64,000 nucleotides of DNA from assembly GCA_937872225.1 (NCBI GenBank), contig CALMRZ010000033.1, positions 16,315 to 80,314 on the forward strand, read 5' to 3'. The stretch comes from an uncultured Spirochaetota bacterium. Lineage in GTDB: Bacteria > Spirochaetota > UBA4802 > UBA5550. The notes beneath the pieces are model-generated. The model saw only the letters and a program-made list of their open reading frames with translations. It did no database searches and had not been told where the DNA came from. Shown here one piece after another: positions 1,307 to 47,130 of this stretch. Position numbers and translations under genes: made by a program. Numbering within the stretch: position 1 is the first letter of the stretch; every line of letters begins with the position of its first letter.

Positions 1307-3253
1307 TCATGACTGTTCCCGGTATAATCCGTCTATGATATCCTTGTAATTTTTCAGCACCACTTTCCGCTTGACCTTCAGGGTGGGCGTAAGCTCTCCC
1401 GTTTCCTGGGTAAAGGGACTAGCCAGGAGGGAGAAGTTCTTGATCTGCTCGACCCTGCCGAGGGGCTTGTTCAGCTCGTCGACGATCTCCCGGTACTTCT
1501 TCAGGACCTCGGGATGGGCGATCAGCTTCTTCGGATCCGTCTCGGTTATGCCCTTCGATTTCGCCCACTTGGTCAGTTCGGGGAAGCAGGGCACGATGAG
1601 CGACACGAGGAACTTCATCTGGTCGCCGATAACGGCCATCTGCTCGATGAAGGGATGGGCAACGAAGGCGCCCTCGATAACCTGCGGGGCCACGTTCTTT
1701 CCGCCGGCGGTGATGATGATGTCCTTTTTCCGGTCGGTGATGCGCAGGTAGCCGTCCTCATCGATCACGCCGATATCGCCGGTGTGGAACCAGCCGTCCC
1801 TGGACAGCACCTCCTTCGTGTCCTCCGGCCTGTTATAGTATCCCTTCATGACCTGGGGCCCGCGGATCAGGACCTCGCCGTCGTCGGCTATTTTACATTC
1901 GGTCCGGGGCAGCGGCGGGCCGCAGGTTCCCAGCTTGATCGGCTTGATATACCGGAAGGTGTTCAGGTGCGTAACCGGCGTGGTCTCGGTCAGGCCGAAG
2001 CCGAGGTGCACCTCGATGCCCATCGCCTGGAAGAACTCCCAGATGTTGTAGGCAAGGGGCGCTCCGCCCATCCCCATGACGATCATGCGGTCAAGGCCCA
2101 GGGCGGCCCGGAGCTTGGAGAAGATCAGCCTGTCGAACAGCTTGTACCTGAGGTTAAGCGGAAAGGGCAGCGAACGGTTCGCGGTGATATACGGCACGGC
2201 CTTCCTGCCGGCCTTCATGGCCGCGGCAAATAGCTTCTTCTTGCCTGCCGGCGCTTCCCGCAATTTTGACTGGATCCCTTCATATAATTTCTCCAGGACC
2301 CGGGGGACATAGACGCAGGCATAGGGACGAATGTCGACCAGGTCCTCCACGAGGGTCTCGGCGCCCCTGGTGTAGGCGATGGTTCCGCCCACCTTGATGA
2401 AGGAATTGTATCCGATGGTCCGCTCCAGGGAATGCGAAAGCGGCAGGAGGGAGACGCAGAGCGCCTCGAAGTTCTCCTTCGGGAAGGGATGGTGCTCGAG
2501 GAACTGCTCCACGTTCGCGACGAGGTTGTTGTGGGTGAGCATGACGCCCTTGGGGTTGCCCGTGGTCCCGGAGGTGTATATCAGGGTCGCCGTTTCTTCA
2601 AGATCGATTTTCCTCAACCGCTTGTCGATCTCCTTCAGGTTGAGGTTCTTGTTCCCGATGGCAATGATATCCGAGAACCTGGTGACCAGCTTGTCCTTGT
2701 AGTCGAGGTTGTCGAAGACGATGATCTCCTTGAGGTTTTTCAGGTTCTTCTTTTCAGACAGGAGGTTGTCCACCTGGAACTTGCCGGAGCACATGCAGAC
2801 CTTCGCCCTGGAATCGTTCAGGATGTAGGCCGCCTCCGGGCCGGAGTTGGTCGGGTAGATCGTGACATCGGCCGCGCCGATCGCCAGGGCCGCCAAGTCA
2901 GAGAAGCACCACTCCGGGCGGTTGTTGGAATATATGGCGATCTTATCACCGGGCCTGATGCCCTTCTTGATAAAGTATGACGCCAGGGCGTCCACATAAT
3001 CGTTGGATTCCGCGTATGTGTACTCCTTCCAGTTCTTGCCTTCACGGATCTTCACGAAGACCCTGTCTTGAAATTTCTCCGCGTTGTTTTTAAAAATTCC
3101 GGGAATTGTCGTTTCGTCATAAGGTTTAAATGTGCCCACAAGAGACCTCCAGCTATTTTGAAATTTGACCACAGGCTTTTCCAAGGATGCGGCGGACGGC
3201 GCCGCGCGGCGGCACCGCATAACCATTCTCGAAATATACATCCATCTTGTCAA
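1307..3253 (-). CDS. Long-chain fatty-acid--CoA ligase (AMP-dependent synthetase/ligase family). Start codon uncertain, with several in-frame starts 3218-3253.
   Basis: AMP-binding motifs YTSGTTGNPKGVMLTHNNL, TGDIGVIDEDGYLRITDRKKD and a C-terminal GEL..TLKVKRK tail; 648-aa ORF. Confidence 0.85.
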   Translation of the reverse strand: MTRWMYISRMVMRCRRAAPSAASLEKPVVKFQNSWRSLVGTFKPYDETTIPGIFKNNAEKFQDRVFVKIREGKNWKEYTYAESNDYVDALASYFIKKGIRPGDKIAIYSNNRPEWCFSDLAALAIGAADVTIYPTNSGPEAAYILNDSRAKVCMCSGKFQVDNLLSEKKNLKNLKEIIVFDNLDYKDKLVTRFSDIIAIGNKNLNLKEIDKRLRKIDLEETATLIYTSGTTGNPKGVMLTHNNLVANVEQFLEHHPFPKENFEALCVSLLPLSHSLERTIGYNSFIKVGGTIAYTRGAETLVEDLVDIRPYACVYVPRVLEKLYEGIQSKLREAPAGKKKLFAAAMKAGRKAVPYITANRSLPFPLNLRYKLFDRLIFSKLRAALGLDRMIVMGMGGAPLAYNIWEFFQAMGIEVHLGFGLTETTPVTHLNTFRYIKPIKLGTCGPPLPRTECKIADDGEVLIRGPQVMKGYYNRPEDTKEVLSRDGWFHTGDIGVIDEDGYLRITDRKKDIIITAGGKNVAPQVIEGAFVAHPFIEQMAVIGDQMKFLVSLIVPCFPELTKWAKSKGITETDPKKLIAHPEVLKKYREIVDELNKPLGRVEQIKNFSLLASPFTQETGELTPTLKVKRKVVLKNYKDIIDGLYREQS

Positions 3254-3404
3254 CGAACTACCACGGCAACAAATTCAATTTAAATGTATTGACAATCCTT
3301 TAAGTGTAACAATATCCTGTCCATACTGATCCATCTGCCCGTGCCTATGTTTTTCTGATTATTCCCTGTCTGGACGTGAACGCTTGTTACCAAGGACTGT
3401 CTGA

Positions 3405-5474
3405 ATGACCAAGCTTGTGCCGGTTATCCTCGCGTTCCTCCCCCTGCTGCTCCGCGTGCCCGTCGCGGCTACTGAACCCGTTATAATCGAAGATACCCTG
3501 AAAGGAGAATCGATAGGCACGCACCTCGAATACTGCGAGGACCGCACCAGAAAAGCGACCATCGACGACATTGCATCGGCACGGCGCGGCGGCGCCTGCC
3601 TCTGGAAAAAATCCCGCAGGGTTTCACCGGGATTCGGCTACACGAAAAGCGCATACTGGATACGCTTCACCGTGACCAACAGGACGGCCCACGAAATATC
3701 ATGGTACCTGCAGCAGCGCTATCCCCTCATCAATTATCTCAGCCTCTACACGCCGTCGGGCGCGGGGGACGGCCGGTACCTGGAAATCAGGACCGGCACC
3801 CGGCTTCCCTTTTCCCAGAGGCCCCTGAACCACCGGACCTTCGTGTTCCCGCTGAAAACGGCGGCGGGCGCCGGCGACACGTACTACATGAGATACGAAA
3901 GCGAGGGCGCGATGAACATCACCCTCCACGTTTTTTCACCGTTTGAATTCAACGACGAGAGGGATTCCGAATCGATACTGATATGGGTGCTGGTCGGGAT
4001 CTTCCTCATAATGATATTATACAATTTCATTCTTTTTTTCTCCTTCAAGGAGATCGGCTATCTCTACTATGTTCTCTACCTCATATCATTCCTGGCGCTC
4101 TTCCTGTCGATCGAGGGGATCGCCTACCAGTACCTCTGGCCCGACGCAATCTGGTGGGGGACCTTCAACAAGCCGATATTCGTGAGCATGACCGTGTGCA
4201 CCATATGCCTCTTCATGCGCAATTTCGCGAAGACAGGGGAGCTCTTCCCGTATATAGACCGGGTCTTTATCGCCTTCATCGTCACCGGCATGCTGGCGGC
4301 CGTGATATCGCCCTTTATCAGCTTCCGCCTGGCCATGTCGGGCACGGTGTTCCTCACCGTCCTGAACGCCGCCTTTGCCCTGCCGGCAAGCGTCTACCTG
4401 TCGATACACAAATCGCGGCCGGGGCAGTTCATCCTGGCGTCGTTCTGCCTCTTCATGATCGGCGCCATCCTGTACCCGCTCAAGTCATTCGGCCTTATCC
4501 CGGACACCTCCGTGACCAACTACAGCATCGAGTTCGGCGCCGCCCTGCAGATCACCATCCTTTCCCTGGGCCTCGCGGACCGCATACACACGATGCGGAT
4601 AGAGCTGGAGCGCATAACCCAGACCCTGGAGGACAAGGTCAACGAGCGCACGGAGGAGCTGCTGTCCGCCAACGATGAAATGTCGGCCATGAATCACGCC
4701 CTCATCCAGGCCCGCGACGAGATATGGGGCGAGATGGAGCTCGCTAAAAAAATACAGACCGTCCTCCTCCCCGAGAACCCCCGGGTGTCCGGCTACGATA
4801 TATCGACCTACATGAAGCCCGCCCAGGAGGTCGGCGGGGACTATTACGACATCATCAACATCAAGGGGTGCGACTGGCTGGTTATCGGCGACGTCTCCGG
4901 CCACGGCGTCCCGGCGGGCCTCATCATGATGATGGTGCAGACGTCCATCCATTCAGTCCTGGTCGTGCAGCCGGACACCAGCCCCTCGGACCTGCTGGTG
5001 CAGGTGAACAGGATCATCTCGGAAAACATAAAGAAGCTCGGCGAGGAAAAGTACATGACCATAACGGTCCTGGCCTGCATACAGGACGGCAGGTTCTACT
5101 ATTCCGGCCTGCACCAGGACCTCATGATCTACCGGGCCAGGAGCGGGAACGTGGAGGTGTTTGAAACCGACGGGATGTGGCTCGGAATCTACAGCAATAT
5201 CCAGGGCATGGTGGGCGACAACACCCTTACCCTTGACGTGGGCGATACGCTTCTTCTGTTTACCGACGGAATAACCGAGGCCCGGAGAGCGGACAGCCCC
5301 GCGGGGCCGTCCGAATCCGAAAGGGACATGTTCGGCCAGGACCGGCTCCGGGACATACTGGCACGTCTCGGAAAAAACACCACGGAAGAGATCAAGGGCG
5401 GCATACTGAAGGAGCTGTCCTCGTATGTATGTCATGATGACGTTACCATGATGATCCTCAAGCGGAATGCGTAG
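3405..5474 (+). CDS. 7TMR-DISM receptor fused to a PP2C/SpoIIE-type Ser/Thr phosphatase (signal peptide, DISMED2-like extracellular domain, 7TM, coiled coil, PPM phosphatase).
   Basis: Signal peptide MTKLVPVILAFLPLLLRVPVAA; seven hydrophobic helices in the middle; C-terminal PP2C motifs GGDYYDI, IGDVSGHGVPAG, TDGITEA. Confidence 0.8.
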   Translation: MTKLVPVILAFLPLLLRVPVAATEPVIIEDTLKGESIGTHLEYCEDRTRKATIDDIASARRGGACLWKKSRRVSPGFGYTKSAYWIRFTVTNRTAHEISWYLQQRYPLINYLSLYTPSGAGDGRYLEIRTGTRLPFSQRPLNHRTFVFPLKTAAGAGDTYYMRYESEGAMNITLHVFSPFEFNDERDSESILIWVLVGIFLIMILYNFILFFSFKEIGYLYYVLYLISFLALFLSIEGIAYQYLWPDAIWWGTFNKPIFVSMTVCTICLFMRNFAKTGELFPYIDRVFIAFIVTGMLAAVISPFISFRLAMSGTVFLTVLNAAFALPASVYLSIHKSRPGQFILASFCLFMIGAILYPLKSFGLIPDTSVTNYSIEFGAALQITILSLGLADRIHTMRIELERITQTLEDKVNERTEELLSANDEMSAMNHALIQARDEIWGEMELAKKIQTVLLPENPRVSGYDISTYMKPAQEVGGDYYDIINIKGCDWLVIGDVSGHGVPAGLIMMMVQTSIHSVLVVQPDTSPSDLLVQVNRIISENIKKLGEEKYMTITVLACIQDGRFYYSGLHQDLMIYRARSGNVEVFETDGMWLGIYSNIQGMVGDNTLTLDVGDTLLLFTDGITEARRADSPAGPSESERDMFGQDRLRDILARLGKNTTEEIKGGILKELSSYVCHDDVTMMILKRNA

Positions 5475-12558: not shown

Positions 12559-14790
12559 TCACGCATGTTCTATGTTGAAATAATTTACGGCCTCTTTTAA
12601 TTTTTCAGCAAGGCTCGACAGGTTGGTCGCGCTTGCCGAAAGCTCCTGGGTTTCAGAGGCATTCGACTGGGACAGTTCATTGATGGCCGTTATGGCCTTG
12701 ACGATCTCGTAATTGGCGTTCTTCTGCTCCTGCGACGCCGTTTTAATCTCCTCGGACCGGTCCCGTATCTCATGGGCGGCCGAATTCACCTCAGCGTTGG
12801 TGGCGTTCTGGCTGTTCATGAATTCCGCGACCTGGTTCATTAAGGTGTCTATCGAATTGACGCCCGTGATGATCTCGCTGATAAGGTTGATCGTGGTCGC
12901 GACGTTCGCCATCCCCGTTTCGACGTCGGCCGTATTGTTCTTGATCAGGCGGTCGATGTCCATGATGCTTTTCGACGTCATTTCAGCGAGCTTCGAGATC
13001 TCATCGGCGACGACGGCGAACCCCCTCCCCGCGGTCCCGGCGCGGGCGGCCTCGATGGCCGCGTTCAGCGAGAGGAGATTGATCTGGTCGGATATGCCGT
13101 TGATTATTTCGACCACGTTAGTCATCTGGCCGGAACTGGCGATGATGTTGTTCATCGTGGCCTGCATGTTCATCAGGGCCTTTTCACCGCCCTCGGCCCG
13201 GCGCGTGATCCGGTATGTCTGTTCCAGGGTCTCCCTTGTTTTCACGTTCATCTCGTCGATGATGCGTGAAAGCCGCTCCATCTTCAGGATAAGCTCGTTC
13301 AGGTTCATGTACTGGTACTGGGCGGCGCTGGAAATGCTGTCGATGCCCGCCGACACCTGTTCGACGGTCGCCGTGATCTCCTCCGAGTTCGACGCCTGGT
13401 TCTGGGCGTTATTGGAGAAGACCGAGGTCGAATTCGACATCTGCTCGGACGAGCTTGCCAGATCGATGGAAGTGGTCTTGATGCTCCTGATGATTTCGCG
13501 CAGGATGACAAGGAGCTTGTCTATGTTAAACACGATCTCGCCGACCTCGTCGAAGGTCGTTATCACCAGGTTCTGCGAGATCTCGCCGCTGGCCAGTTTG
13601 GTGACGGCCTCCTTCACCTGCGACAGCGGGGCTATGCGCTGCGTAATGATGAAATAGGTGACCCCTCCCATCATGAGTATGCCCGCGAGGAGGAACGCCA
13701 GCATGAAAATCGTGGTCTGGAAGATCCTTTCTTCTATCTCGGATTCGTAGATGCTCGAAAAGACAAAGACCCTGTTTTTCAGAGACCGGCGGACCGCCAT
13801 ATAGCGCCAGTTTTTTCCGTCGTCAAAGCGCAGGTGGTGGACCGTGCCGGCACCGAGTATCTCCCCGCCGTAGCGTTCCACAAACGCTCCATTGATATCC
13901 AGCCGCGACCCGCTTTGGGTGAGGACGGCGAAGTCCCTGTCCGCGATGGTGATGGTGCCGGTTTTGCCCGTCTCGATGTTCTTCAGCACGCGGGCCCGAA
14001 ACGGCTCCGAGCCGATCGCCCTCCGCACGTCTTTCCCGTCCCGGCTTTTCCCGACTTCAGCGAGATAATCGTCCATCTCCCTGACGGCGGTCCCGGCGAC
14101 GATGTCCATCTTGTCAAGATACGACTCCTTCAGCTGGTAATACGAAAGGTTATAGACCACCGTGACCATGATGATGCCGAGGAAGGCCATGATGGTGATG
14201 ACGGAAATGGACAGGTACCGTCCCATCCTGCTTTTCGCGTCAAAGACCGAACCCGAAATCCGGGAAAAAAGTCCGAACCTGGCTATACGGTTCAGGAGAT
14301 ACTCGGGGACAAGGTAAAAGATAATCCCCGACGCAATGGTGTTGATGACCAGCAGCATCCCCATGTTGAAGGTGTCTGTGAATGAAGGATGGGACGTTAT
14401 ATTAAGGATGACGATGATGGAGCTGACCGTGAGGACCCACCGGACCATGGTATCGATGGCGTGGAGCTTCGGGAGTTTCTGGTACCGGTCGTAAGCGGCG
14501 GCATAGTCCTCATCGGATACCTGTTCGCCCCGCAGGACTGAACTGAAATAATTAAGGATAGGCCGGGCTTTTTTCCGCGACGATATGACCGATATGACGA
14601 AGGACAGCGCCATGACCAGGGCCGCAATCATGAAAAAAACCAGGAGGTCCCTCTGCTGGAGATTGATGACCAGCACGACAACGACCATGGCCGTGGGGGA
14701 CAGCACCAGAAACGCCACCCCCTCGGTAAAAATATAGAAGGACCTGAAGAAAGACCGCAGATACCCGTATGCTTTTTCAGCGCCGTCCAT
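12559..14790 (-). CDS. Methyl-accepting chemotaxis protein with an N-terminal multi-TM sensor module, HAMP and MCP signalling domain.
   Basis: Highly conserved MCP tip [29 protein letters not shown]; several N-terminal hydrophobic helices; paralog of 20280-22478. Confidence 0.9.
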
Positions 14791-20082: not shown

Positions 20083-20279
20083 GGAAACCCCGCCTGTTGT
20101 GAATTATATGAAATAATCACGGTGCGGGGGCGGAAGTCAAGAGCATTTCAGACCGTCGGGGCGGGACCTGCAGGGCACTGCCGCGACCCCTCCAGGTTTA
20201 ACCCAGTCATTTTTAGTTGACAACCGGCCGGGATGCTCCTTATATAATAACCATACCAAACCGATCATGGGGGCATGAT

Positions 20280-22478
20280 ATGGAACAGCAATATGACCGG
20301 AACCTGCTTCTGGGTCTGCCGCGGCGTGTTTTCCTGACAACGGACTTCATAGCCTACACTGTCATTATCCCCTTTACCGCCCTGATGTCCTATTTCATGA
20401 TCGATATCAGCGGGACGCAGACGATTGTATATTTTTCCGCCATCCTTCTTCTCATTGGCGCCGCATGCACCGTAACGGTCATGAGCTACCGGAAGCTCTT
20501 CTCGCCGATTTTACTCTATTTCAACGCTGTCCTGGAATCGCGGGAGGTCACCGACAAGGAGTTCTACCTTGCCAAGAAGACCTTCTTCTCGCTTTCCCGG
20601 CGGCGGTGCCTGGAGGCGCTCATATCCTGGTGCATCCTCATGCCCGCCGGCATGCTCCTGGTGGCGCTCCTGTTCAACCCGACCCTGAAGGCCATTGTCA
20701 TCATCATGTCCCTCTTCTTCATAAACGCCATCGCCATGTCATGCACCTATTACCTGGCGATAGATTTCAACACGAGGGCGATAGCCCGCACCGGGATCTT
20801 CTCCCGCGTGGCCGAAGGAGAGGAGAAGCTGAAGAGCCGCATGAGCACGTCCCTCGCGCTGGTCATCATATCCTTTATCGCCGTGTTCTGCGGCCTCGTT
20901 GTTCCCGTCGCCTATGTCATAATAGACAAAACGGTGTACGGGAGCCGCCTTGAACAGATGAATATCGCCGTTTCCCTCATCAACGGCCGCGCCGCCGCCG
21001 TATACGACAGCGATAGTAACGACAGGTCGCGCCTGCAGGCCGGACTCAGGGATGCCGTGAGCGAAGCGCGGGGGAACGGCCGGTATGCGGTCATCATCGA
21101 CGGCGACGGGACCATAATCGCCCACCCGGACGAGTCAATGGTTTTCAAGAAGGCGTCGGAATTCCCCTGGGGGCCGCGCGTCCTCGCGGCCGACGAAGGG
21201 TGCTTTGATTTCAGGGACGGCACAGGCGGAGACCGCATGATCGCCTGTGGATCGAAGAACAGGGCCTACAGCTTCAAGGTGGCCTACATAACCAGCCGCG
21301 CCGAGATTGACGGGCTCTGCAAAACCATCGTGCTCGTCATGGTCGGCTTCGCCGCCGTCATGCTCGTCGCCATCGGATTCGGCATTTACCGCCTCATCAC
21401 CTACCGCCTGGCGCCCCTCGAGGAATGCCGCGCCGTCATAGAGGAAACCGGCCGCGGCAACCTCCGCCAGAACGTCATCAGCTATTCCACGGACGAACCG
21501 GGAAATATCCTCCTCACCATGAGCTCCTTCCTCGGCGAACTCCGGGGCGTAGTGGCGAGCACCCAGGGCGTGTCCGGCGACCTAGCCAGCGCGTCCCTGG
21601 AAATGTCGGCCACGGCCGAGTCCTTCTCGGCGAACGCCCAGCACCAGGCGTCGACAGCGGAAGAGGTGACCGCCACGGCCGAAGAGGTGTCGGCGGGCAT
21701 CGACAAGATCGCCGACGATACCCAGCGGCAGTACGAGGGGATCACCCTCCTCCTTTCGCAGATCAGGGACCTCGACCGCAGCATCAACGAGACCTCGGCG
21801 ATGATCCGGGAGGCGGCAGACGTCTCAACGCAGATATCCCTCAAGGCGCGGGAGGGCGAACAGTCCATGACCGGCATGAACAGCGCCATGACCAGGATAA
21901 TCCAGAGCTCGGAGGAGATGACCGGCATCGTCAAGATCATCAACGACATTTCCGAGCGGATCAACCTTCTCTCTTTGAACGCCGCCATCGAGGCGGCGCG
22001 GGCCGGCGACGCGGGCCGGGGCTTCGCCGTCGTCGCGGACGAAATATCGAAGCTCGCGGACCAGACCGCCACCAGCATCAAGGAGATCGACCGCCTCATC
22101 AAGGCCAACACGGAACAGATCCAGAGCGGGATGGTATACATCGGCCAGACCACCCGGAACATCGGCGCCATCATCGAGGGCGTCGCCACCATCACCGGCA
22201 GGATGGGCAACCTCACGGAAAACGTCAGGCACCAGGTGGAAATAAAAGATTCCGTGAGATCCGAGGGCGATGCTGCCCAGGGCCGCTCAGACCAGATCCG
22301 GATTGCCACGGACGAGCAGAAGAGGGCCATGGATGAAATCGTCAGGTCCATCACCCGCATCAACGAGCTGACCCAGTCCATTGCCGCGGGCACCGAGCAG
22401 ATGACGGCCAACCTGAAGGGGATCGAACAGATGGCGGAAACCCTTAAGGAAGGGATCGAGTATTTCAAGCTTTCATAG
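20280..22478 (+). CDS. Methyl-accepting chemotaxis protein (multi-TM N-terminal sensor, HAMP, MCP signalling domain), paralog of 12559-14790. The ORF-track TTG start 20217 is rejected.
   Basis: [29 protein letters not shown] tip motif; start at MEQQYDRNLL (ATG 20280). Confidence 0.9.
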   Translation: MEQQYDRNLLLGLPRRVFLTTDFIAYTVIIPFTALMSYFMIDISGTQTIVYFSAILLLIGAACTVTVMSYRKLFSPILLYFNAVLESREVTDKEFYLAKKTFFSLSRRRCLEALISWCILMPAGMLLVALLFNPTLKAIVIIMSLFFINAIAMSCTYYLAIDFNTRAIARTGIFSRVAEGEEKLKSRMSTSLALVIISFIAVFCGLVVPVAYVIIDKTVYGSRLEQMNIAVSLINGRAAAVYDSDSNDRSRLQAGLRDAVSEARGNGRYAVIIDGDGTIIAHPDESMVFKKASEFPWGPRVLAADEGCFDFRDGTGGDRMIACGSKNRAYSFKVAYITSRAEIDGLCKTIVLVMVGFAAVMLVAIGFGIYRLITYRLAPLEECRAVIEETGRGNLRQNVISYSTDEPGNILLTMSSFLGELRGVVASTQGVSGDLASASLEMSATAESFSANAQHQASTAEEVTATAEEVSAGIDKIADDTQRQYEGITLLLSQIRDLDRSINETSAMIREAADVSTQISLKAREGEQSMTGMNSAMTRIIQSSEEMTGIVKIINDISERINLLSLNAAIEAARAGDAGRGFAVVADEISKLADQTATSIKEIDRLIKANTEQIQSGMVYIGQTTRNIGAIIEGVATITGRMGNLTENVRHQVEIKDSVRSEGDAAQGRSDQIRIATDEQKRAMDEIVRSITRINELTQSIAAGTEQMTANLKGIEQMAETLKEGIEYFKLS

Positions 22479-22505: not shown

Positions 22506-23135
22506 CTACGAAAAATACCCGTGGACCGCGTGGAGGTCCCGCCGCGCGGCGATACGCTCCTCCAGTTCCTCCCATAGATTCTCGCGCTGCGCCGGCTGCA
22601 GCTTTTCCGGCACGGGAAAATTTTTCATGGTGCGGCGGAGCAGATCCGGCTCGTGGATGAGGATGCTGTAATAGAACCAGTCCCGGGCAAGACGCGCGGC
22701 ATACAGGACCTCTTCATCGGCAAGGCCTTCCCGGGCCGTGCAGGTAAAAATCTTTCCCCGGTAATTGAGAAAGCATTCATGACGAAGGCCCGGCTGTCCC
22801 TCTTCGGGGCCGAGAAGGCACCTGGTGATTCTTTCCCTGCTGATAAATCCGACGAAGGGACACCGGGGACAATCCGGGAAGATCGCCGGAATGGAAATAT
22901 CAAAAAGCGCATTGGAAGGATCGATGTAATAAGAACCGGTCATAGCGCTCCGGCAGGCGTTCATTTTTCTGACCAGGAAATCCCTGCTGTACGCCTTCCT
23001 GATCATGGCGCGGCGGACAAACAGCGCTTCACATTCCTCCCGGGAAGCTCGGTAATTATGGCTGCCGCAGCAGAGGGAGCATGACGCGCCGTAGCCGGGA
23101 CGGCAGATGTTGACGTTCCCATTCATCACAGGCAC
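22506..23135 (-). CDS. Cysteine-rich hypothetical protein (possible metal-binding; CxxCC and CPxCP motifs), divergent from the gatA-aspS fusion gene.
   Basis: 209-aa ORF with CSLCCGSH, CPRCPF and multiple other Cys; no confident family assignment. Confidence 0.4.
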   Translation of the reverse strand: MPVMNGNVNICRPGYGASCSLCCGSHNYRASREECEALFVRRAMIRKAYSRDFLVRKMNACRSAMTGSYYIDPSNALFDISIPAIFPDCPRCPFVGFISRERITRCLLGPEEGQPGLRHECFLNYRGKIFTCTAREGLADEEVLYAARLARDWFYYSILIHEPDLLRRTMKNFPVPEKLQPAQRENLWEELEERIAARRDLHAVHGYFS

Positions 23136-23368
23136 CAGTGCATCATCCTCGGCATTTAGTCAACCATCTTACCCGTCCGTGTGTTTTTGTAAGTGCCGCT
23201 GCATATTGCGAGGGGAAATGTTAAGCCTGTGTAAAATAACAACAATAAATCACGACATCAATGAAACAGCTATTGACAGTATAACGACAAAATAATTACT
23301 TTACCTTTGTTTAACAGCCTGCCGGATAACAGCGGACTGTTAAGATTATTGGCAAACGGGAACAACAC

Positions 23369-26254
23369 ATGACCGACCTCACCGGAAAAACCTCTGAAGA
23401 GATACTAGCCCTGGTGGAAACGCGCGAGCTCTCCTGCGAAGAACTGGTGCGGCACAGCCTCTCCCTCCATGAGACCTATGATCCCGTGCTGGGCTGCTTC
23501 ATCTCCGTGTACCCGGAGGAGGACCTCTTGGACCAGGCCAGGGAAAGCGACCGGCGCAGGGCGTCCGGCGCCCCGAAGGGGCCCCTGGACGGGATACCCG
23601 TCGCGGTGAAGGACAACATCCACTCCCGCGGCGCCGCCACCACCTGCGCCTCGGCGATCCTTGAAGGATACATGCCTCCCTATGACGCCACCGCCGTGGC
23701 GCGGATAAAAGAAAGCGGCGGCATCATTTTCGGAAAGACGAACCTGGATGAATTCGCCATGGGCTCCACCTGCGAGAACTCATCGGTCAGGATAACACGC
23801 AACCCCTGGGACATCGGCCGCGTGCCGGGCGGGTCCTCCGGCGGGTCCGCGGCGGCCGTGGCGGCGGGGATCGTGCCCCTGGCCCTGGGAAGCGACACCG
23901 GCGGATCTATACGGCAGCCCGCCGCCTTCTGCGGCATCGCGGGTCACAAGCCGACCTACGGCCTGGTATCCCGCTACGGCCTCGTGGCCTACGCGTCATC
24001 GCTGGACCAGATCGGGCCCCTGGCACGGGACACCTTCGGCTGTTCCCTGCTCCTGCGCGTCATCAGCGGCTTCGACCCCCACGATTCCACGTCGCTGTCA
24101 TCGCCGCCTGACTTCGCCGGAATATCCGGCAACGCCCTGAAGGGGACCCGCATAGCGGCCCTCCCCGAGCTTTTCCAGGAAGGGGTGTCTCCCCTCGTGC
24201 GCGAGCAGTTCGAGAATTCCCTCGCGACACTGAGGAATCTCGGCGCGACCGTGGAGCAGGCGCCCATGGCCTCGCTCCATTACGCCATATCTGCCTACTA
24301 TTTCATCGCCTGCGCTGAAGCCGCCTCCAACCTTTCACGCTACGACGGCGTGAAATACGGATACCGGAGCGGGAGCCAGCGCGACTACCAGGAGATGCTC
24401 TTCACCACCAGGTCCCGCGGCTTCGGCCGGGAAGTGAAAAAGAGGATCCTCCTCGGCAATTTCGTGCTTTCGTCCGGCTACTACGACGAGTACTACCGCA
24501 AGGCCCTCAAGGTGCGCGCCTATATCCGTGACGACATGATGAAGCTCCTCCAGAAATTCGACGCCATCGTCATACCGACAACGCCGGACATCGCCTTTCC
24601 CCTGGGAGAGAGCCAGAGCGACCCGATGAAGATATACCTTTCCGACGTGACCACGGTCATCGCCAACCTGGCCGGGCTGCCGGCCCTGTCGGTGCCGGCC
24701 GGAATGGTCCACGGCATGCCGGCGGGACTCCAGTTCATCGGGCGTCCCCTGGATGACGGCAGGCTCATTGCCATGGCAGGCGCCTTCGAGAAGGAGCGTG
24801 GCGCCGCTCTCACGCCCCCCATGGAAAGGATACTCGAAAACGACGCCCTGCCCGGGGCAGCGGTAAAAAAAGAAAACGGCCGCGAAGAGGATACGGCAAC
24901 CGCCTACACCCCGGAATTCATCGGCTCCATTTCCAAATCCTACATGAACCGCGAAAGCAGGATGGCGGACCGCGCCTATTGCGGCGGTCTCGCCGCCCAT
25001 CTGAACAAGCGGGTCACCATAGGCGGCTGGATCCACCGGAAAAAAAGCCTGGGCGGCATCGAGTTCTACGAGCTCCGCGACCGCACCGGCTTCACCCAGC
25101 TTGTCCTCGAGGGAGGAAAGCAGGACGAGCGGATCGGCCTCGAAACGGTGGTGGAAGTCATCGGAAAAGTAACGAAGGAGGACCGGAGCCCCTTCGACAG
25201 CATTGAAATAAAAGTGGAATCATTGAAGATACTGGGCAAGGCCGAGGCGAACCTCCCCGTGCCCCTGAACAAGCCGCCGGGAAACGTCACCCTGCCGACC
25301 ATTCTCGACAACAGGACCATCTCGCTGCGCAATCCCGATATTCTCAGGGCCTTCAGGCTCCAGTCGGAGATCGTGCGGCTCTTCACGGGGTATCTTCACG
25401 CCAACAGCTTCACCGAGATCAAGAGCCCGAAGATCATCTCCTCCGGGACCGAGGGCGGCACCAACATCTTCAAGGTCAATTATTTCGGACGCACCGCCTT
25501 TCTCGCCCAGTCGCCGCAGTTCTACAAGCAGATCATGGTGGGGAGCGGCCTTGAGCGCGTTTTCGAGGTGGGCCCGGTGTTCCGCGCCGAGCACCACGAC
25601 ACCATCCGCCACCTGAACGAGTACATCAGCATGGACTTCGAGATGGGCTTCATCCGCGACGAGCAGGACGTGATCGACATGCAGGAGGGCCTGCTCCGGC
25701 ACCTGTTCGACGAGCTGATAAAGAACACCGGCGGTCTCCTCGACGACGGCGGCGCGTCACTCACCTTCCCCGGCAGGATACCGCGGATACACTACCTTGA
25801 AGCGCTGGAGATCATCCGGTCCGCCGGCGGCCGCCTCGAGGAAGGCGACATCTCGCCGGAAGGGGAAAAGATACTCTGCAGTCATTTTGAGAGGGAGAAG
25901 GGGTCCCAGTTCGTGTATGTCATCGGCTACCCGGTCAAGAAGCGGCCGATGTACACCATGCCGGACGAGCGCGTTCCCGGCTACACCCGGAGCTTCGACC
26001 TGCTGTACCGCGGCATCGAGATAACCACCGGCGGCCAGCGGATCCACGACTACGAGATGCTGAAGGAAAACATGAAGATGCTCGGCTTCAACCCGGCCGA
26101 GTTCCGGCATTATCTTGAGGCCTTCCGCTTCGGCATGCCGCCCCACGGCGGCCTTGGCATGGGGCTGGAACGCCTCACCATGAAGATCATGAATCTGAAG
26201 AACATCCGGGAGGCGAGCCTCTTCCCGCGGGACATCAACCGGATAACGCCATAG
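23369..26254 (+). CDS. gatA/aspS: In-frame fusion of the Glu/Asp-tRNA amidotransferase A subunit (GatA, amidase; residues ~1-490) with an archaeal/eukaryal-type class IIb aspartyl-tRNA synthetase (AspRS2, likely non-discriminating; residues ~540-961).
   Basis: The N-terminus has the amidase signature GGSSGGSAAAVAAG and the GatA-like tail AFEKER. After a ~50-aa linker come an OB-fold (VTIGGWIHRKKSLGGIEFYELRDRTGFTQLVL) and class II motifs (FRAEHHDTIRHLNEY, SGGQRIHD, GMPPHGGLGMGLERL, FPRD). It is a single 961-aa ORF with no stop. Confidence 0.8.
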   Translation: MTDLTGKTSEEILALVETRELSCEELVRHSLSLHETYDPVLGCFISVYPEEDLLDQARESDRRRASGAPKGPLDGIPVAVKDNIHSRGAATTCASAILEGYMPPYDATAVARIKESGGIIFGKTNLDEFAMGSTCENSSVRITRNPWDIGRVPGGSSGGSAAAVAAGIVPLALGSDTGGSIRQPAAFCGIAGHKPTYGLVSRYGLVAYASSLDQIGPLARDTFGCSLLLRVISGFDPHDSTSLSSPPDFAGISGNALKGTRIAALPELFQEGVSPLVREQFENSLATLRNLGATVEQAPMASLHYAISAYYFIACAEAASNLSRYDGVKYGYRSGSQRDYQEMLFTTRSRGFGREVKKRILLGNFVLSSGYYDEYYRKALKVRAYIRDDMMKLLQKFDAIVIPTTPDIAFPLGESQSDPMKIYLSDVTTVIANLAGLPALSVPAGMVHGMPAGLQFIGRPLDDGRLIAMAGAFEKERGAALTPPMERILENDALPGAAVKKENGREEDTATAYTPEFIGSISKSYMNRESRMADRAYCGGLAAHLNKRVTIGGWIHRKKSLGGIEFYELRDRTGFTQLVLEGGKQDERIGLETVVEVIGKVTKEDRSPFDSIEIKVESLKILGKAEANLPVPLNKPPGNVTLPTILDNRTISLRNPDILRAFRLQSEIVRLFTGYLHANSFTEIKSPKIISSGTEGGTNIFKVNYFGRTAFLAQSPQFYKQIMVGSGLERVFEVGPVFRAEHHDTIRHLNEYISMDFEMGFIRDEQDVIDMQEGLLRHLFDELIKNTGGLLDDGGASLTFPGRIPRIHYLEALEIIRSAGGRLEEGDISPEGEKILCSHFEREKGSQFVYVIGYPVKKRPMYTMPDERVPGYTRSFDLLYRGIEITTGGQRIHDYEMLKENMKMLGFNPAEFRHYLEAFRFGMPPHGGLGMGLERLTMKIMNLKNIREASLFPRDINRITP

Positions 26255-26267
26255 AAGGGTCACGGCC

Positions 26268-28037
26268 ATGACAGAGAAAAACCCCATCAACATTGACCGC
26301 CTTATAGACCTCGGGTCCTTCGAGGTGACCGGCGCGGAGAAGCAGCAGTTCGAGGGCGAGCTTGCCGATTTCCTGGAGTATGCCCGGGTCATCAACGGCG
26401 CGCCGCAGCACCTGCCGCCGGCAAGCCACGCCGTTGACAAGGAGCAGCTCCTCCGCGCGGACGAGGCCTCGCCATGGAAGGAGCGCGAGTCCCTCATCGG
26501 CAACGCGCCGGCGCTGCAGGGCACGAGCTACCTGGTGCCGCCCCTGGCGGGAATCTCCGGCACCGCCAGGGAGCAGGAGCCGCGGACGGGCAAACCGGGA
26601 AGCGGCGACTACGAGGTCGTCATCGGCCTGGAGGTACACGCCCAGCTGAACACCTCGACCAAGCTTTTCTGCTCATGCCCGACCTCGTTCGGGAGCGACC
26701 CCAACAGCAACACCTGCCCGGTATGCTCCGGCCAGCCCGGGGCGCTCCCCGTTCTGAACCGCGAGGCAGTGTCCATGGCAATCATGGCCGGCCTGGCCAT
26801 GGGGTGCGCTATCAACGGGCGTTCCCTCTTCGCGCGGAAGAACTATTTCTACCCGGACCTGCCCAAGGGCTACCAGATATCGCAGTTCGAGGAGCCCATC
26901 TGCAGCGGCGGCGTCGTGGAAATCGAGCTGGATAAGGCCACAAGGAAAATACGCCTCAACAGGATACACGTTGAGGAGGACGCCGGCAAACTGGTGCACG
27001 TGGGCGCCCCGGGGATCTGGGGCTCCAAGGCGAGCGCGGTCGACTACAACCGCTCCAGCGTTCCACTCATCGAAATCGTGTCCGAGCCGGACATCTCTTC
27101 GCCGGCCGAAGCCCGCGAATTCATGGTGATGCTCAGGGCCATCCTGGTGACCCTGGGGATATGCAACGGCAACATGGAAGAAGGAAACCTCCGGTGCGAC
27201 GCAAACGTGTCCCTGAGAGAACGGGGGGACACCGAGCTGGGCGTCAAGGTGGAGATCAAGAACATGAACTCCCTGAAGGCGATCGAGCGCGCCCTCGCCT
27301 ACGAGATAACCCGCCTCGAGCAGATGAAGCGCGCCGGCACGCCCATAGAGCAGGAGACGCGGCTCTGGGACGACAGCTCCCAGAAGACGGCCCTGATGCG
27401 GAGCAAGGAGGAGTCCCACGACTACCGCTATTTCCCGGACCCGGACCTGCTGCCCCTCACCGTAACGGACGAATGGATCGAGTCTGTGCGCAGGGCGCTC
27501 CCGCCGATGCCCCTGGAGCGGAAAAACAGGTACGAGCGCGAATTCTCCTTCACCGAATCCGAGGCCCGGCTCTTCATGGTCAATCCGGCGTACGCGGCAT
27601 TCTTCGAGAAAGCGCTGCTCTCCTACGGCAATGCCCGGAACCTGGCAAACTGGCTCTTCTCCGAGCTCCTTTCCCACGAGGACGATTTCGACCGGCTCCA
27701 TGTCACGCCGGAGGACTTCGCGAAATTTTTAAAGAAGATAGACAGCGGAGAGATCAGCGGCAGGCAGGGCAAGGACATCCTCCGCAGGGCCTTTGCGGAC
27801 AGGAAAGGGATCATTGAAATCATTGAAAGCGAAGGCCACGCCCAGATCACGGACCGCGCTTCCATCGAAAAGGCGGTGGACAACGTCATCGCGTCCCACC
27901 CGGACCAGGTCGCGGAATACCGGAGCGGCAAGACCCGGGTGCTGGGCTACCTCGTCGGCGCGGTCATGAAGGCCACCGGCGGCAAGGCCAACCCGGCCCT
28001 CGTGAACGAGGTCCTCACCGAGAAACTGAAGGGTTGA
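26268..28037 (+). CDS. gatCB: In-frame fusion of GatC (residues ~1-108) with GatB (the remainder) of the tRNA-dependent amidotransferase.
   Basis: GatC-like N-terminus (IDRLIDLGSFEVTGAEKQQFEGELADFLEYARVIN...SHAV...NAP...YLVPP) followed by the GatB start VVIGLEVHAQLNT..KLFC.C, and a C-terminal YqeY/GatB tail. Confidence 0.8.
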   Translation: MTEKNPINIDRLIDLGSFEVTGAEKQQFEGELADFLEYARVINGAPQHLPPASHAVDKEQLLRADEASPWKERESLIGNAPALQGTSYLVPPLAGISGTAREQEPRTGKPGSGDYEVVIGLEVHAQLNTSTKLFCSCPTSFGSDPNSNTCPVCSGQPGALPVLNREAVSMAIMAGLAMGCAINGRSLFARKNYFYPDLPKGYQISQFEEPICSGGVVEIELDKATRKIRLNRIHVEEDAGKLVHVGAPGIWGSKASAVDYNRSSVPLIEIVSEPDISSPAEAREFMVMLRAILVTLGICNGNMEEGNLRCDANVSLRERGDTELGVKVEIKNMNSLKAIERALAYEITRLEQMKRAGTPIEQETRLWDDSSQKTALMRSKEESHDYRYFPDPDLLPLTVTDEWIESVRRALPPMPLERKNRYEREFSFTESEARLFMVNPAYAAFFEKALLSYGNARNLANWLFSELLSHEDDFDRLHVTPEDFAKFLKKIDSGEISGRQGKDILRRAFADRKGIIEIIESEGHAQITDRASIEKAVDNVIASHPDQVAEYRSGKTRVLGYLVGAVMKATGGKANPALVNEVLTEKLKG

Positions 28038-47107: not shown

Positions 47108-47130
47108 TTTTTTTGTAAGGAAACGGAGCC

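What the first reader, a model, noticed from the sequence alone, without database searches (positions are those of the whole stretch)
23369..28037. Transamidation apparatus encoded as two fusion genes: GatA-AspRS2 and GatC-GatB
The canonical layout is separate gatC, gatA, gatB and aspS genes; in the gatCAB-plus-non-discriminating-AspRS route these assemble non-covalently into a 'transamidosome' for Asn-tRNA(Asn) synthesis. Here one 961-aa ORF joins a complete GatA amidase to an archaeal-type class IIb AspRS through a ~50-aa linker. The next gene, starting 14 nt downstream, joins GatC to GatB through a ~15-aa linker. This would be a covalently hard-wired transamidosome. It implies the organism lacks AsnRS and/or asparagine synthetase and makes Asn on tRNA. 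I do not recall this double-fusion architecture being described.
Basis: partly seen in the sequence, partly recalled or inferred. Interest (0 to 1): 0.85.

Follow-up and report, generated by a model that had tools for sequence, protein, structure and literature searches.

The report
Two-gene covalently fused asparagine transamidosome
Four proteins that normally assemble around a tRNA to make asparagine on it (AspRS, GatC, GatA, GatB) are encoded here as two fusion genes, an undescribed layout conserved across a bacterial clade; it does not show that the cell lacks the direct asparagine route.

Summary
ORF 23369-26254 (961 aa) is a complete GatA amidase joined by about 60 residues to a complete archaeal-type aspartate--tRNA(Asn) ligase. 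ORF 26268-28037 (589 aa), 13 nt downstream, is a full GatC joined by about 20 residues to a full GatB.

Neither fusion is an artefact. About 65 full-length GatA-AspRS clusters and 89 GatC-GatB clusters exist, with identity down to 54-55%. They come from many independent assemblies of uncultured Spirochaetota and from the cultured planctomycete Ca. Uabimicrobium amorphum. All catalytic residues are invariant. The fusions form one clade in both halves.

The AspRS half is closest to T. thermophilus AspRS2, the enzyme in the crystallised transamidosome, and carries the His/Pro signature seen in that non-discriminating enzyme.

The most likely function is a hard-wired (GatA-AspRS)2(GatC-GatB)2 machine that makes Asp-tRNA(Asn) and amidates it without release.

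One fusion-bearing relative has asnS directly upstream. Another has asnB and an asnA-like gene beside the cassette.

I found no paper describing these fusions, and public records label them simply GatA or GatB. This is a new variant of a known system and is moderately to highly interesting.

The parts
23273..23278 (+). Candidate -35 box (TTGACA) of the operon promoter, followed by an A/T-rich box
   Evidence: It is invariant in the upstream regions of the window, L086, L002 and L085. The consensus promoter scan did not call it, so confidence is low.
23369..26254 (+). ORF1: GatA-AspRS fusion gene (961 aa, 105.8 kDa)
   Evidence: About 65 full-length homologs of 955-1011 aa share the same three Pfam domains.
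23411..24796 (+). GatA glutaminase (amidase-signature) domain, aa 15-476
   Evidence: TIGR00132 scores 559 bits against a cutoff of 481. K81, S156 and S180 are invariant in 65 of 65 sequences. The predicted fold matches solved GatA chains with target-normalised TM-scores of 0.93-0.95.
24797..24985 (+). Inter-enzyme connector, aa 477-539
   Evidence: It lies between the last GatA-aligned and the first AspRS-aligned residues. Its length is conserved, with a gap fraction of 0.04 or less, while its sequence is the least conserved part of the protein.
24842..24901 (+). Variable segment of the connector, predicted disordered, aa 492-511
   Evidence: pLDDT is below 50 in the deep AlphaFold2 model. 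Column identity is 0.32-0.39.
24902..24946 (+). Conserved connector motif, about Y-[ST]-x-E-x-I-x-x-[IV]-S-x-S-Y, predicted helix, aa 512-526
   Evidence: See the alignment. Y525 is invariant and S522 at least 90% conserved in A1. Helix 515-526 has pLDDT of about 65-80. The motif is absent from the C-terminal tails of stand-alone GatA and from stand-alone AspRS, which start about 7 residues before aa 540.
25013..25234 (+). AspRS anticodon-binding OB fold, aa 549-622, containing H556 (nt 25034-25036) and P608 (nt 25190-25192)
   Evidence: Pfam PF01336. H556 aligns with T. kodakarensis W26 and P608 with K85. The non-discriminating T. thermophilus AspRS2 has H and P at these positions.
25298..26233 (+). 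AspRS class II catalytic core, aa 644-955, with no GAD insertion (archaeal type)
   Evidence: PF00152 scores 286 bits. It aligns end to end with 1N9W/3KFU at E = 1e-105. QSPQ 714-717, FRAE 738-741 and E934/R935 are invariant in 65 of 65 sequences.
26255..26267 (+). 13-nt intergenic spacer containing AAGGG (possible ribosome-binding site); the genes are tightly linked
   Evidence: The spacer is 2-20 nt in L001, L002, L003, L089 and L092. It is longer in L085, L086 and L088, and the two genes are unlinked in L083.
26268..28037 (+). ORF2: GatC-GatB fusion gene (589 aa, 65.1 kDa)
   Evidence: There are 89 homolog clusters of 575-635 aa, and every one matches a GatC profile.
26268..26546 (+). GatC module, aa 1-93
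   Evidence: Pfam GatC scores 27.4 bits against a cutoff of 23. The family profile matches the solved GatC chains 3H0L_C (E = 5.5e-7), 2DF4_C (E = 1.3e-6) and 4WJ3_C over nearly their whole length. R63 is present in 86 of 89 sequences and D65 in 89 of 89; the C-terminal SYLVPP (Y88, V90, P91, P92) is conserved.
26547..26606 (+). GatC-GatB connector, aa 94-113, variable and charged
   Evidence: Column identity is 0.27 for aa 101-110 and the length is conserved. Solved GatB chains begin aligning at aa 113-116.
26607..27482 (+). GatB cradle (catalytic) domain, aa 114-405
   Evidence: PF02934 scores 398 bits. NF004012 scores 629 bits against a cutoff of 338. E122 and H124 are invariant in 89 of 89 sequences.
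27600..28028 (+). GatB helical/YqeY tail domain (tRNA D-loop binding), aa 445-587
   Evidence: PF02637 scores 138 bits. The role in tRNA anchoring is taken from PMC4027206.

Best explanation
The two genes encode a covalently pre-assembled asparagine transamidosome.

Shown by sequence:
- ORF1 carries an intact glutamine-hydrolysing GatA and an intact archaeal-type AspRS of the aspartate--tRNA(Asn) ligase family on one chain.
- ORF2 carries a complete GatC belt and a complete GatB (kinase/transamidase plus tRNA-binding tail) on one chain.

Inferred from established knowledge of the families:
- AspRS is an obligate dimer, and GatC wraps the GatA-GatB interface. The expected particle is therefore (GatA-AspRS)2(GatC-GatB)2, about 342 kDa, with one amidotransferase per AspRS active site.
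- The AspRS domain charges tRNA(Asn) with Asp.
- The flexible connector is about 60 residues: about 20 disordered residues plus a conserved short helix. It lets the acceptor end of the bound tRNA pass to the GatB site on the same particle.
- In GatB, Asp is phosphorylated and then amidated with ammonia tunnelled from GatA.

In the solved non-covalent transamidosomes the tRNA is what holds the enzymes together. Here the tether would make the association independent of tRNA and fix the stoichiometry. No free mischarging AspRS could then release Asp-tRNA(Asn) into translation.

Fusing GatC, which GatA needs in order to fold, to GatB would further make a stable GatA-AspRS depend on the presence of GatB. 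Where asnS is present, as in L091, the machine would act mainly as a tRNA-dependent asparagine synthase, as in Thermus and Deinococcus.
For: - Domain content and curated-cutoff matches.
- Full-length structural matches of each half to GatA (TM about 0.94) and to archaeal-type AspRS, including the 3KFU chains (TM about 0.92).
- The closest solved AspRS is T. thermophilus AspRS2 from the transamidosome crystal (E = 1e-105).
- His and Pro lie at the two anticodon-loop positions where discriminating T. kodakarensis has W26 and K85. This holds in the window and in 57 of 65 homologs at each position, and no homolog lacks both.
- Invariant GatA K81/S156/S180, AspRS QSPQ/FRAE/ER, GatC R63/D65 and GatB E122/H124.
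- The fusions are under long-term selection. There are 65 and 89 clusters, with identity down to 54-55%, and connector lengths are conserved.
- Both genes occur together on the same contigs, usually 2-20 nt apart.
- The fusions are monophyletic in both halves.
- There is no conserved internal Met that could yield a free AspRS.
- In three sub-lineages the cassette sits next to asparagine genes: asnS in L091, and an asnA-like gene and asnB in L088/L089.
- Literature: transamidosomes channel the mischarged tRNA and are tRNA-scaffolded (PMC3367201; PMC7373986). The GatC C-terminal hairpin packs on GatB, so a GatC-to-GatB tether fits the known geometry (PMC7541841; PMC4027206). GatC is needed for GatA stability (PMC4027206). 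An engineered GatC-linker-GluRS tether was used for the T. maritima transamidosome crystal (3AL0 chain C).
Against: - There is no biochemical evidence. Non-discrimination is inferred from family models and two residues, and I could not retrieve the primary papers for that residue rule.
- Eight of 65 homologs have Tyr instead of His, and eight others lack the Pro.
- The relative position of the two enzymes in the model is unreliable (pTM 0.56). I could not check whether the connector spans the distance from the GatA C-terminus to the AspRS N-terminus in 3KFU or 4WJ3.
- A laboratory GatC-GatA fusion raised mistranslation rather than lowering it (PMC7541841). Tethering is therefore not automatically beneficial.
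- In L083 the two genes are unlinked.
- Whether the window organism has other AspRS, AsnRS, GlnRS or GatCAB copies is unknown.
Confidence: 0.78

Rival explanations
1. The fused AspRS is the cell's only, general-purpose AspRS. [quoted passage not shown] The fusion then safeguards fidelity in an organism without AsnRS.
For: No other synthetase is present in the 64-kb window. Many bacteria with an extra AspRS lack AsnRS (PMC4206432). The AspRS half matches the aspartate--tRNA(Asn) ligase equivalog models.
Against: A relative with the same fusions has asnS directly upstream. Another has asnB. Sixty-four kb is about 1-2% of a genome, so absence from the window carries no weight. Archaeal-type AspRS in bacteria is usually a second copy (PMC4206432).
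Confidence: 0.3
2. The fusions are selectively near-neutral 'Rosetta-stone' events. They only guarantee co-expression and 1:1 stoichiometry. Channelling is no better than in the non-covalent complex.
For: Most of each connector is poorly conserved and part is predicted disordered. The cassette works as separate genes in Clostridia and Thermus.
Against: Both fusions persist together, with no reversion in any locus examined, down to 54-55% identity and across two phyla. Connector lengths are conserved. The ORF1 connector holds a conserved helix motif specific to the fusion clade.
Confidence: 0.15
3. The fusions are assembly, frameshift or gene-calling artefacts.
For: There is an A7 homopolymer in the ORF1 connector DNA. 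Some public records list separate 'AspRS' (430-442 aa) or short 'GatB' (471-481 aa) proteins from this lineage.
Against: Every such record checked has a continuous ORF of 963-972 aa or 589-590 aa in the DNA. The one fragmented case is broken at several places, consistent with sequencing or assembly frameshift errors. Identical architecture is seen in dozens of independent assemblies; P0063 alone is on 24 or more contigs. It is also seen in the genome of a cultured organism.
Confidence: 0.01
4. The AspRS domain is a catalytically dead or repurposed scaffold. It could be a tRNA-holding module or a tRNA-independent AsnA-like enzyme rather than an aminoacylating enzyme.
For: AspRS paralogs with new functions exist: AsnA, ErdS (PMC9437257). 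An AsnA-like paralog lies next to the cassette in L088 and L089.
Against: The anticodon-binding OB fold is retained, which AsnA lacks (PMC4206432). Motifs 2 and 3 and the Asp-binding QSPQ are invariant. The scores exceed the curated equivalog cutoffs for aspartate--tRNA(Asn) ligase.
Confidence: 0.03

Closest known systems
Thermus thermophilus Asn-transamidosome (archaeal-type ND-AspRS2 + GatCAB + tRNA(Asn); PDB 3KFU, AspRS2 alone 1N9W)
   Same: It has the same four protein modules. The AspRS half here is most similar to this AspRS2 (E = 1e-105, end-to-end alignment; fold TM about 0.92). Both are archaeal type without a GAD domain and share the His/Pro positions. The organism also has AsnRS, as does relative L091.
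   Different: In Thermus the four proteins are separate and the complex is held together by tRNA (PMC3367201). Here GatA is covalently joined to AspRS and GatC to GatB. The connector motif at aa 512-526 has no counterpart.
Clostridial aspS-gatC-gatA-gatB operons (e.g. Clostridium sp. OS1-26 in L004; the C. acetobutylicum T-box-controlled operon cited in PMC4206432)
   Same: An archaeal-type aspartate--tRNA(Asn) ligase is genetically linked to gatCAB. These are among the nearest stand-alone AspRS relatives, at 56% identity or less.
   Different: They are four separate genes in the order aspS-C-A-B, not A-aspS followed by C-B. I found no T-box or other Rfam leader here.
Engineered GatC-linker-GluRS fusion used to crystallise the Thermotoga maritima Gln-transamidosome (PDB 3AL0 chain C)
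   Same: It is a covalent tether between an amidotransferase subunit and the mischarging synthetase (molecule name).
   Different: It is artificial, uses GluRS rather than AspRS, and tethers from GatC rather than from GatA.
Laboratory-selected GatC-GatA fusion in Mycobacterium smegmatis (PMC7541841)
   Same: GatC is fused to a catalytic subunit and the cells remain viable.
   Different: The partner is GatA, not GatB. That fusion arose by loss of a stop codon, is modelled to pull the GatC hairpin away from GatB, and increases mistranslation. Here GatC is fused to the subunit its C-terminus normally contacts.
aaRS fused to the enzyme that consumes its aminoacyl-tRNA: ErdS (AspRS-DUF2156) and LysX (LysRS-MprF)
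   Same: The logic is the same. A class IIb synthetase is covalently coupled to the next enzyme acting on the aminoacyl-tRNA (PMC9437257).
   Different: Their downstream reaction transfers the amino acid to a lipid. [quoted passage not shown]

Membership tests
GatA (glutaminase subunit of tRNA-dependent amidotransferase) | Score above the curated equivalog cutoff (TIGR00132) | tested here: met
   559.3 bits against a cutoff of 481.1, aa 15-476.
GatA (glutaminase subunit of tRNA-dependent amidotransferase) | Amidase-signature Ser-cisSer-Lys catalytic triad | tested here: met
   K81, S156 and S180 are present and invariant in 65 of 65 fusion homologs. The assignment of these residues as the triad rests on my knowledge of S. 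aureus GatA (K79/S154/S178).
GatA (glutaminase subunit of tRNA-dependent amidotransferase) | GatA fold | tested here: met
   Foldseek target-normalised TM-scores of 0.93-0.95 and rmsd 2.0-2.5 to 4WJ3_A, 2DF4_A, 3H0L_A and 3KFU_E, using a model with pLDDT 85.
Archaeal-type non-discriminating AspRS (aspartate--tRNA(Asn) ligase, 'AspRS2') | Score above the curated equivalog cutoffs | tested here: met
   NF003483 scores 531.7 bits against 353. TIGR00458 aspS_nondisc scores 420.2 against 368.4. The AsnRS and bacterial AspRS models score below their cutoffs.
Archaeal-type non-discriminating AspRS (aspartate--tRNA(Asn) ligase, 'AspRS2') | OB anticodon-binding domain plus class II core, without the bacterial GAD insertion | tested here: met
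   About 425 residues align end to end with the 422-aa 1N9W chain. Pfam finds PF01336 and PF00152 only.
Archaeal-type non-discriminating AspRS (aspartate--tRNA(Asn) ligase, 'AspRS2') | Class II motifs 2 and 3 and the Asp-binding QSPQ are intact | tested here: met
   Q714-S-P-Q717, F738-R-A-E741 and E934-R935 are invariant in 65 of 65 sequences.
Archaeal-type non-discriminating AspRS (aspartate--tRNA(Asn) ligase, 'AspRS2') | His and Pro at the anticodon-loop positions equivalent to T. kodakarensis W26 and K85 (determinants of tRNA(Asn) acceptance) | tested here: met
   H556 and P608 are present in the window. His occurs in 57 of 65 homologs (Tyr in 8) and Pro in 57 of 65. The rule itself is recalled from Feng et al. 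2003 and Charron et al. 2003. I could not retrieve those papers. It is consistent with the solved structures aligned: 1N9W has H/P and 1B8A has W/K.
Archaeal-type non-discriminating AspRS (aspartate--tRNA(Asn) ligase, 'AspRS2') | Actual aspartylation of tRNA(Asn) as well as tRNA(Asp) | not testable with these tools
   This needs an aminoacylation assay with the purified protein.
GatC | Match to GatC family models | tested here: inconclusive
   Pfam PF02686 scores 27.4 bits, above its cutoff of 23. TIGR00135 scores 25 bits, below its cutoff of 47.1.
GatC | Full-length similarity to solved GatC chains | tested here: met
   The fusion-family profile hits 3H0L_C at E = 5.5e-7 (profile positions 11-93 against chain residues 9-90 of 94), 2DF4_C at 1.3e-6 (1-96 of 100) and 4WJ3_C at 1.4e-3.
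GatC | Invariant Arg-x-Asp that contacts GatB (S. aureus R64/D66, PMC4027206) | tested here: met
   R63 is present in 86 of 89 sequences and D65 in 89 of 89.
GatB | Score above the curated equivalog cutoff, with cradle, helical and YqeY domains all present | tested here: met
   NF004012 scores 629 bits against 338 and TIGR00133 scores 549.7 against 314.8. PF02934 and PF02637 are both found. The protein aligns to residues 2-481 of solved GatB chains.
Asn-transamidosome (functional complex) | ND-AspRS and all three GatCAB modules are encoded together | tested here: met
   The two adjacent genes carry all four modules. The same pair is found in L001, L002, L003, L085, L086, L088, L089, L091 and L092.
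Asn-transamidosome (functional complex) | Physical complex that retains Asp-tRNA(Asn) until it is amidated | not testable with these tools
   This needs SEC, native MS or cryo-EM, plus kinetics.
Asn-transamidosome (functional complex) | tRNA(Asn) with the U1-A72 pair recognised by GatB | not testable with these tools
   This was not testable for the window organism, whose window holds none. It is contradicted in fusion-bearing relatives: asnS lies upstream in L091, and asnB plus an asnA-like gene lie in L089 and L088.

The most novel reading that the evidence does not exclude
The double fusion creates an obligate, tRNA-independent alpha2-beta2 transamidosome. The clade-specific connector helix (aa 512-526) would be a new docking or gating element that positions AspRS relative to GatB. 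The interlocked design (GatC delivered by GatB, AspRS delivered by GatA) would be a quality-control device ensuring that no mischarging AspRS exists without a complete amidotransferase. The cassette would have arisen once and moved between Spirochaetota and Planctomycetota as a self-sufficient two-gene 'asparagine-on-tRNA synthase'.
Probability: 0.35. Interest if true: 0.75.

Novelty: new variant of a known kind. Interest (0 to 1): 0.62.

Why it matters
Transamidosomes are the textbook example of substrate channelling that protects the genetic code. A deliberately mischarged tRNA must not escape before it is corrected. All characterised examples are non-covalent and depend on tRNA as the glue, and their stability differs between species.

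A natural, conserved, covalently wired version offers three things:
- It is evolutionary evidence that proximity of the two enzymes is under selection.
- It gives structural biologists a mesophilic transamidosome with fixed 1:1 stoichiometry. One source is the cultured Ca. Uabimicrobium amorphum.
- It allows a clean experiment, fused against split, to measure what tethering contributes to fidelity.

It also exposes an annotation problem. Public pipelines name these proteins just 'GatA', 'GatB' or 'aspartate--tRNA(Asn) ligase', and sometimes truncate them. Pathway reconstructions for these genomes will therefore miscount aspS and gatC.

Tried and rejected
1. Species-representative genome scan with an alignment of fusions. 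Only one Spirochaetota fusion (L003) came back, so I obtained no proper taxonomic census. Apparent 'full-length' matches in Clostridia turned out to be separate aspS-gatC-gatA-gatB genes.

2. First AlphaFold2 run on an 11-sequence alignment. Mean pLDDT was 58 and the model was unusable. The 149-sequence run gave pLDDT 85, but pTM was 0.56, so I drew no conclusion about inter-domain geometry.

3. Search for unfused intermediates in the lineage. Every candidate (P0167, P0203, P0212, P0241, P0243, P0244) was a start-codon miscall, a truncated gene model or a frameshifted contig.

4. Test of whether the connector derives from C-terminal tails of stand-alone GatA. Those tails are unrelated low-complexity sequence.

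5. Search for a T-box or other leader RNA, a promoter and a terminator. There was nothing above noise, apart from a conserved TTGACA box.

6. Literature check of the W26H/K85P rule and of the 3KFU paper. These papers are not held in the library.

7. P0470 (914 aa) from the exhaustive search looked like a second fusion family. It is a tandem AspRS without GatA.

8. I could not determine whether the window's organism has asnS, asnA/B, a bacterial aspS, glnS or a second gatCAB.

Full report
**1. Observation**

The window holds two co-directional ORFs exactly where stated: 23369..26254 (961 aa) and 26268..28037 (589 aa). They are separated by 13 nt.

Pfam and NCBIfam place four complete modules on the two chains.

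ORF1:
- GatA, aa 15-476. TIGR00132 scores 559 bits against a cutoff of 481.
- An OB anticodon-binding domain, aa 549-622.
- A class II core, aa 644-955.
- The AspRS part exceeds the curated cutoffs of both aspartate--tRNA(Asn) ligase models: NF003483 at 532 against 353, and TIGR00458 'aspS_nondisc' at 420 against 368.
- The AsnRS and bacterial AspRS models stay below their cutoffs.

ORF2:
- GatC, aa 21-90. Pfam scores 27.4 bits against 23, but TIGR00135 scores only 25 against 47.
- GatB cradle plus YqeY tail. NF004012 scores 629 against 338.

The weak GatC call was strengthened by a profile of the fused family. It matches the solved GatC chains of Aquifex (3H0L_C, E = 5.5e-7), S. aureus (2DF4_C, 1.3e-6) and P. 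aeruginosa (4WJ3_C) over essentially their whole length. The Arg-x-Asp pair that contacts GatB in S. aureus (R64/D66; PMC4027206) is present as R63/D65. R63 occurs in 86 of 89 homologs and D65 in 89 of 89.

**2. The fusions are not artefacts**

- The 961-aa query finds about 65 full-length clusters (955-1011 aa) with the same three Pfam domains, from 100% down to 55% identity. They come from NCBI, JGI, ENA and Logan assemblies. One sits on a 4.8-Mb contig and one is from the 9.5-Mb genome of Ca. Uabimicrobium amorphum.
- The 589-aa query finds 89 clusters of 575-635 aa. Every one matches a GatC profile.
- The two sets share contig lengths. In every long locus fetched except L083, the genes are neighbours in the order gatA-aspS then gatC-gatB.
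- Records that seem to contradict this all hold continuous ORFs of 963-972 or 589-590 aa in the DNA, or are contigs broken by several frameshifts. They include 'aspartate--tRNA(Asn) ligase' of 430-442 aa, among them one 95% identical to the window, and 'GatB' of 471-481 aa.
- I found no unfused intermediate in the lineage.

**3. Anatomy of the connectors**

Stand-alone AspRS relatives begin about 7 residues before ORF1 position 540, and GatA similarity ends near 476-478. The ORF1 connector therefore spans aa ~477-539. Its length is conserved, with almost no gaps across 65 sequences, while its sequence is the least conserved part of the protein.

It is not uniform:
- aa 492-511 are variable and predicted disordered, with pLDDT below 50.
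- aa 512-526 carry a conserved motif, about Y-[ST]-x-E-x-I-x-x-[IV]-S-x-S-Y. Y525 is invariant in A1. The segment is predicted as a helix.

The motif is not found in the C-terminal tails of the nearest stand-alone GatA proteins. No internal Met is conserved near the AspRS start, so a separately initiated AspRS is unlikely to be a family feature.

In ORF2 the GatC module ends with a conserved SYLVPP (aa 87-92). A variable, charged stretch of about 20 residues follows. Solved GatB chains begin to align at aa 113-116.

**4. Activity-relevant residues**

- GatA K81/S156/S180, AspRS QSPQ 714-717, FRAE 738-741 and E934/R935 are invariant in all 65 fusions.
- GatB E122/H124 are invariant in 89 of 89.
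- The AspRS half aligns end to end with T. thermophilus AspRS2 (1N9W, also in the transamidosome crystal 3KFU) at E = 1e-105, ahead of the discriminating T. kodakarensis enzyme.
- T. kodakarensis has W26 and K85 at two anticodon-loop positions. The window protein has H556 and P608 there, and the non-discriminating Thermus AspRS2 also has H and P.
- Across the family, His occurs in 57 of 65 (Tyr in 8) and Pro in 57 of 65, and no sequence lacks both.
- That these two positions control tRNA(Asn) acceptance is my recollection of Feng et al. 2003 and Charron et al. 2003. I could not retrieve either paper.
- A 149-sequence AlphaFold2 model (pLDDT 85) superposes on solved GatA chains (TM 0.93-0.95) and on archaeal-type AspRS chains, including 3KFU A-D (TM about 0.92). 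No PDB chain covers both halves; the best query-normalised TM is 0.49.

**5. Evolution and distribution**

- Named sources are uncultured 'Spirochaetota/Spirochaetes bacterium' MAGs, one 'Chrysiogenales' MAG fragment, and Ca. Uabimicrobium amorphum of the Planctomycetota.
- In neighbour-joining trees the fusions are monophyletic in both the GatA half and the AspRS half, against the nearest stand-alone sequences. Those stand-alones are at most 56% identical and come from Clostridia, Planctomycetota, Armatimonadota and Bacillota.
- In an exhaustive search of 1.84 billion 50%-identity representatives, the family collapses to one full-length representative plus fragments. No second GatA-AspRS family appears.
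- A single origin is therefore likely. The presence in two phyla suggests transfer of the two-gene cassette. The trees are simple distance trees without support values, so this is tentative.
- The closest unfused arrangement is the clostridial aspS-gatC-gatA-gatB operon, which has a different gene order. The fused pair cannot have arisen by loss of stop codons alone from that order.

**6. Context**

In the window the pair is isolated. Upstream lie a Na+/H+ exchanger, a DNA methylase, a chemoreceptor and a 209-aa protein of unknown function. Downstream, on the other strand, lie an M24 peptidase, an SCP2 protein and a TetR regulator. The 64 kb contain no other synthetase, Asn synthase, tRNA or Rfam element.

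Relatives are more informative:
- In L091 a bona fide asnS (NF003037, 670 bits against 414) lies 89 nt upstream on the same strand.
- In L088 and L089 a 411-aa AsnA-like class II core paralog lies divergently upstream. It scores below its cutoff.
- L089 adds asnB (TIGR01536, 516 against 267), with glnE and glutamine synthetase downstream.
- In L092 glutamate synthase lies divergently upstream.

Recurrent neighbourhood with asparagine and amide-nitrogen genes supports a role in asparagine metabolism. It also shows that the direct route and tRNA-independent Asn synthases can coexist with the fusions.

**7. Mechanism (inference)**

Three facts from the literature frame the interpretation:
- Mischarged Asp-tRNA(Asn) must reach the amidotransferase before it can be used in translation (PMC7373986; PMC3367201).
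- Known transamidosomes are brought together by the tRNA, and their stability ranges from stable in Thermus to dynamic in H. pylori.
- GatC encircles the GatA-GatB interface, is needed for GatA stability, and ends in a hairpin that pairs with GatB.

From these I infer an (GatA-AspRS)2(GatC-GatB)2 particle of about 342 kDa (masses). The AspRS dimer forms the core, with one amidotransferase tethered per active site. The tether would make assembly independent of tRNA and fix the stoichiometry. Attaching GatC to GatB respects the native geometry. It would also make a stable GatA-AspRS depend on GatB.

An engineered GatC-linker-GluRS chain was used to obtain the T. maritima Gln-transamidosome crystal (3AL0 chain C), so such tethers are compatible with complex formation. 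By contrast, a laboratory GatC-GatA fusion, which pulls GatC away from GatB, raises mistranslation (PMC7541841). Where AsnRS is present, the machine would function chiefly as a tRNA-dependent asparagine synthase, as proposed for Thermus and Deinococcus (PMC4206432).

**8. Novelty**

Five full-text searches with different term sets found no description of a natural GatA-AspRS or GatC-GatB fusion. A 2020 review describes the bacterial amidotransferase as three proteins. A 2020 study found no natural gatC-gatA fusion among about 500 operons.

The sequences are public but labelled only 'GatA', 'GatB' or 'aspartate--tRNA(Asn) ligase'. The chemistry and all four parts are known; the covalent architecture and the connector motif are new. 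I classify this as a new variant of a known kind.

**9. Limits**

- There is no biochemistry.
- Non-discrimination is inferred, not measured.
- The inter-domain geometry is not modelled (pTM 0.56).
- The taxonomic census is incomplete, because the genome scan was swamped by ordinary gatA loci.
- The genome-wide complement of asnS, asnA/B, aspS, glnS and gatCAB in the window's organism is unknown.

Noticed in passing
L086 4375..7293, L088 4438..7329, L089 4420..7314, L085 7650..9419, L083 7674..9446: Public gene models hide the fusions. The pipelines call only a 430-442 aa 'aspartate--tRNA(Asn) ligase', leaving about 1.9 kb of GatA-coding DNA uncalled, or a 471-481 aa 'GatB'. The ORFs are in fact continuous (963-972 aa and 589-590 aa).
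   Followed up: yes
L091 8499..9911 (+): A bona fide asparaginyl-tRNA synthetase gene (NF003037, 670 bits against a cutoff of 414) lies 89 nt upstream of the gatA-aspS fusion on the same strand, in a groundwater Spirochaetes lineage. Its fused AspRS has Tyr instead of His at the W26-equivalent position.
   Followed up: partly
L088 2871..4106 (-), L089 2590..3825 (-), L089 651..2606 (+), L089 9147..12971 (-): A 411-aa AsnA-like paralog lies divergently upstream of the fusion in two relatives. It has a class II core and no anticodon domain, and scores 122-129 bits on NF005054 against a cutoff of 309. L089 also has asnB, glnE and glutamine synthetase nearby, forming an amide-nitrogen gene cluster. 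The function of the paralog is unknown.
   Followed up: partly
P0403, P0451, P0496 (proteins; no loci fetched): Proteins of 579-616 aa with an N-terminal GatC domain followed by a full amidase domain exist in the 50%-identity representative library. These are apparent natural GatC-GatA fusions, which a 2020 survey of about 500 operons did not find. I did not check whether they are gene-calling read-throughs.
   Followed up: no
L092 3484..8073 (-) and 2073..3512 (-): Glutamate synthase large and small subunits lie divergently upstream of the fusion cassette in another relative. This may be a link to glutamine and glutamate supply.
   Followed up: no
window 23273-23300: A TTGACA box and a following A/T-rich box are conserved upstream of the fusion gene in four related loci. 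This is a candidate promoter that the consensus scan missed. A window-specific hairpin at about 23314-23343 is absent from the closest relative.
   Followed up: partly
window 24866-24872: There is an A7 homopolymer inside the DNA encoding the variable part of the ORF1 connector. It is a likely hotspot for frameshift errors in long-read assemblies, and L090 shows this gene in pieces.
   Followed up: partly
window 44100-51166: A co-directional cluster encodes an ATP-grasp/CoA-ligase protein, a beta-keto acid cleavage enzyme (BKACE), an RpiB-like isomerase, a TPP-dependent enzyme and a GFO/IDH/MocA oxidoreductase with a C-terminal SCP2 domain. An IclR regulator lies just upstream on the opposite strand (42790-43560). 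This looks like an uncharacterised catabolic operon.
   Followed up: no
window 3405-5474 and 8251-10638; 12559-14790 and 20217-22478: There are two 7TMR-DISM sensor proteins, one with a SpoIIE phosphatase output and one with a histidine kinase output. There are also two methyl-accepting chemotaxis proteins within 20 kb, so the neighbourhood is rich in signalling genes.
   Followed up: no
window 22506-23135 (-): A Cys-rich 209-aa ORF lies immediately upstream of the fusion. It has no Pfam or NCBIfam match. A gene of similar size (206-207 aa) occupies the same position in L002, L086 and L087.
   Followed up: no
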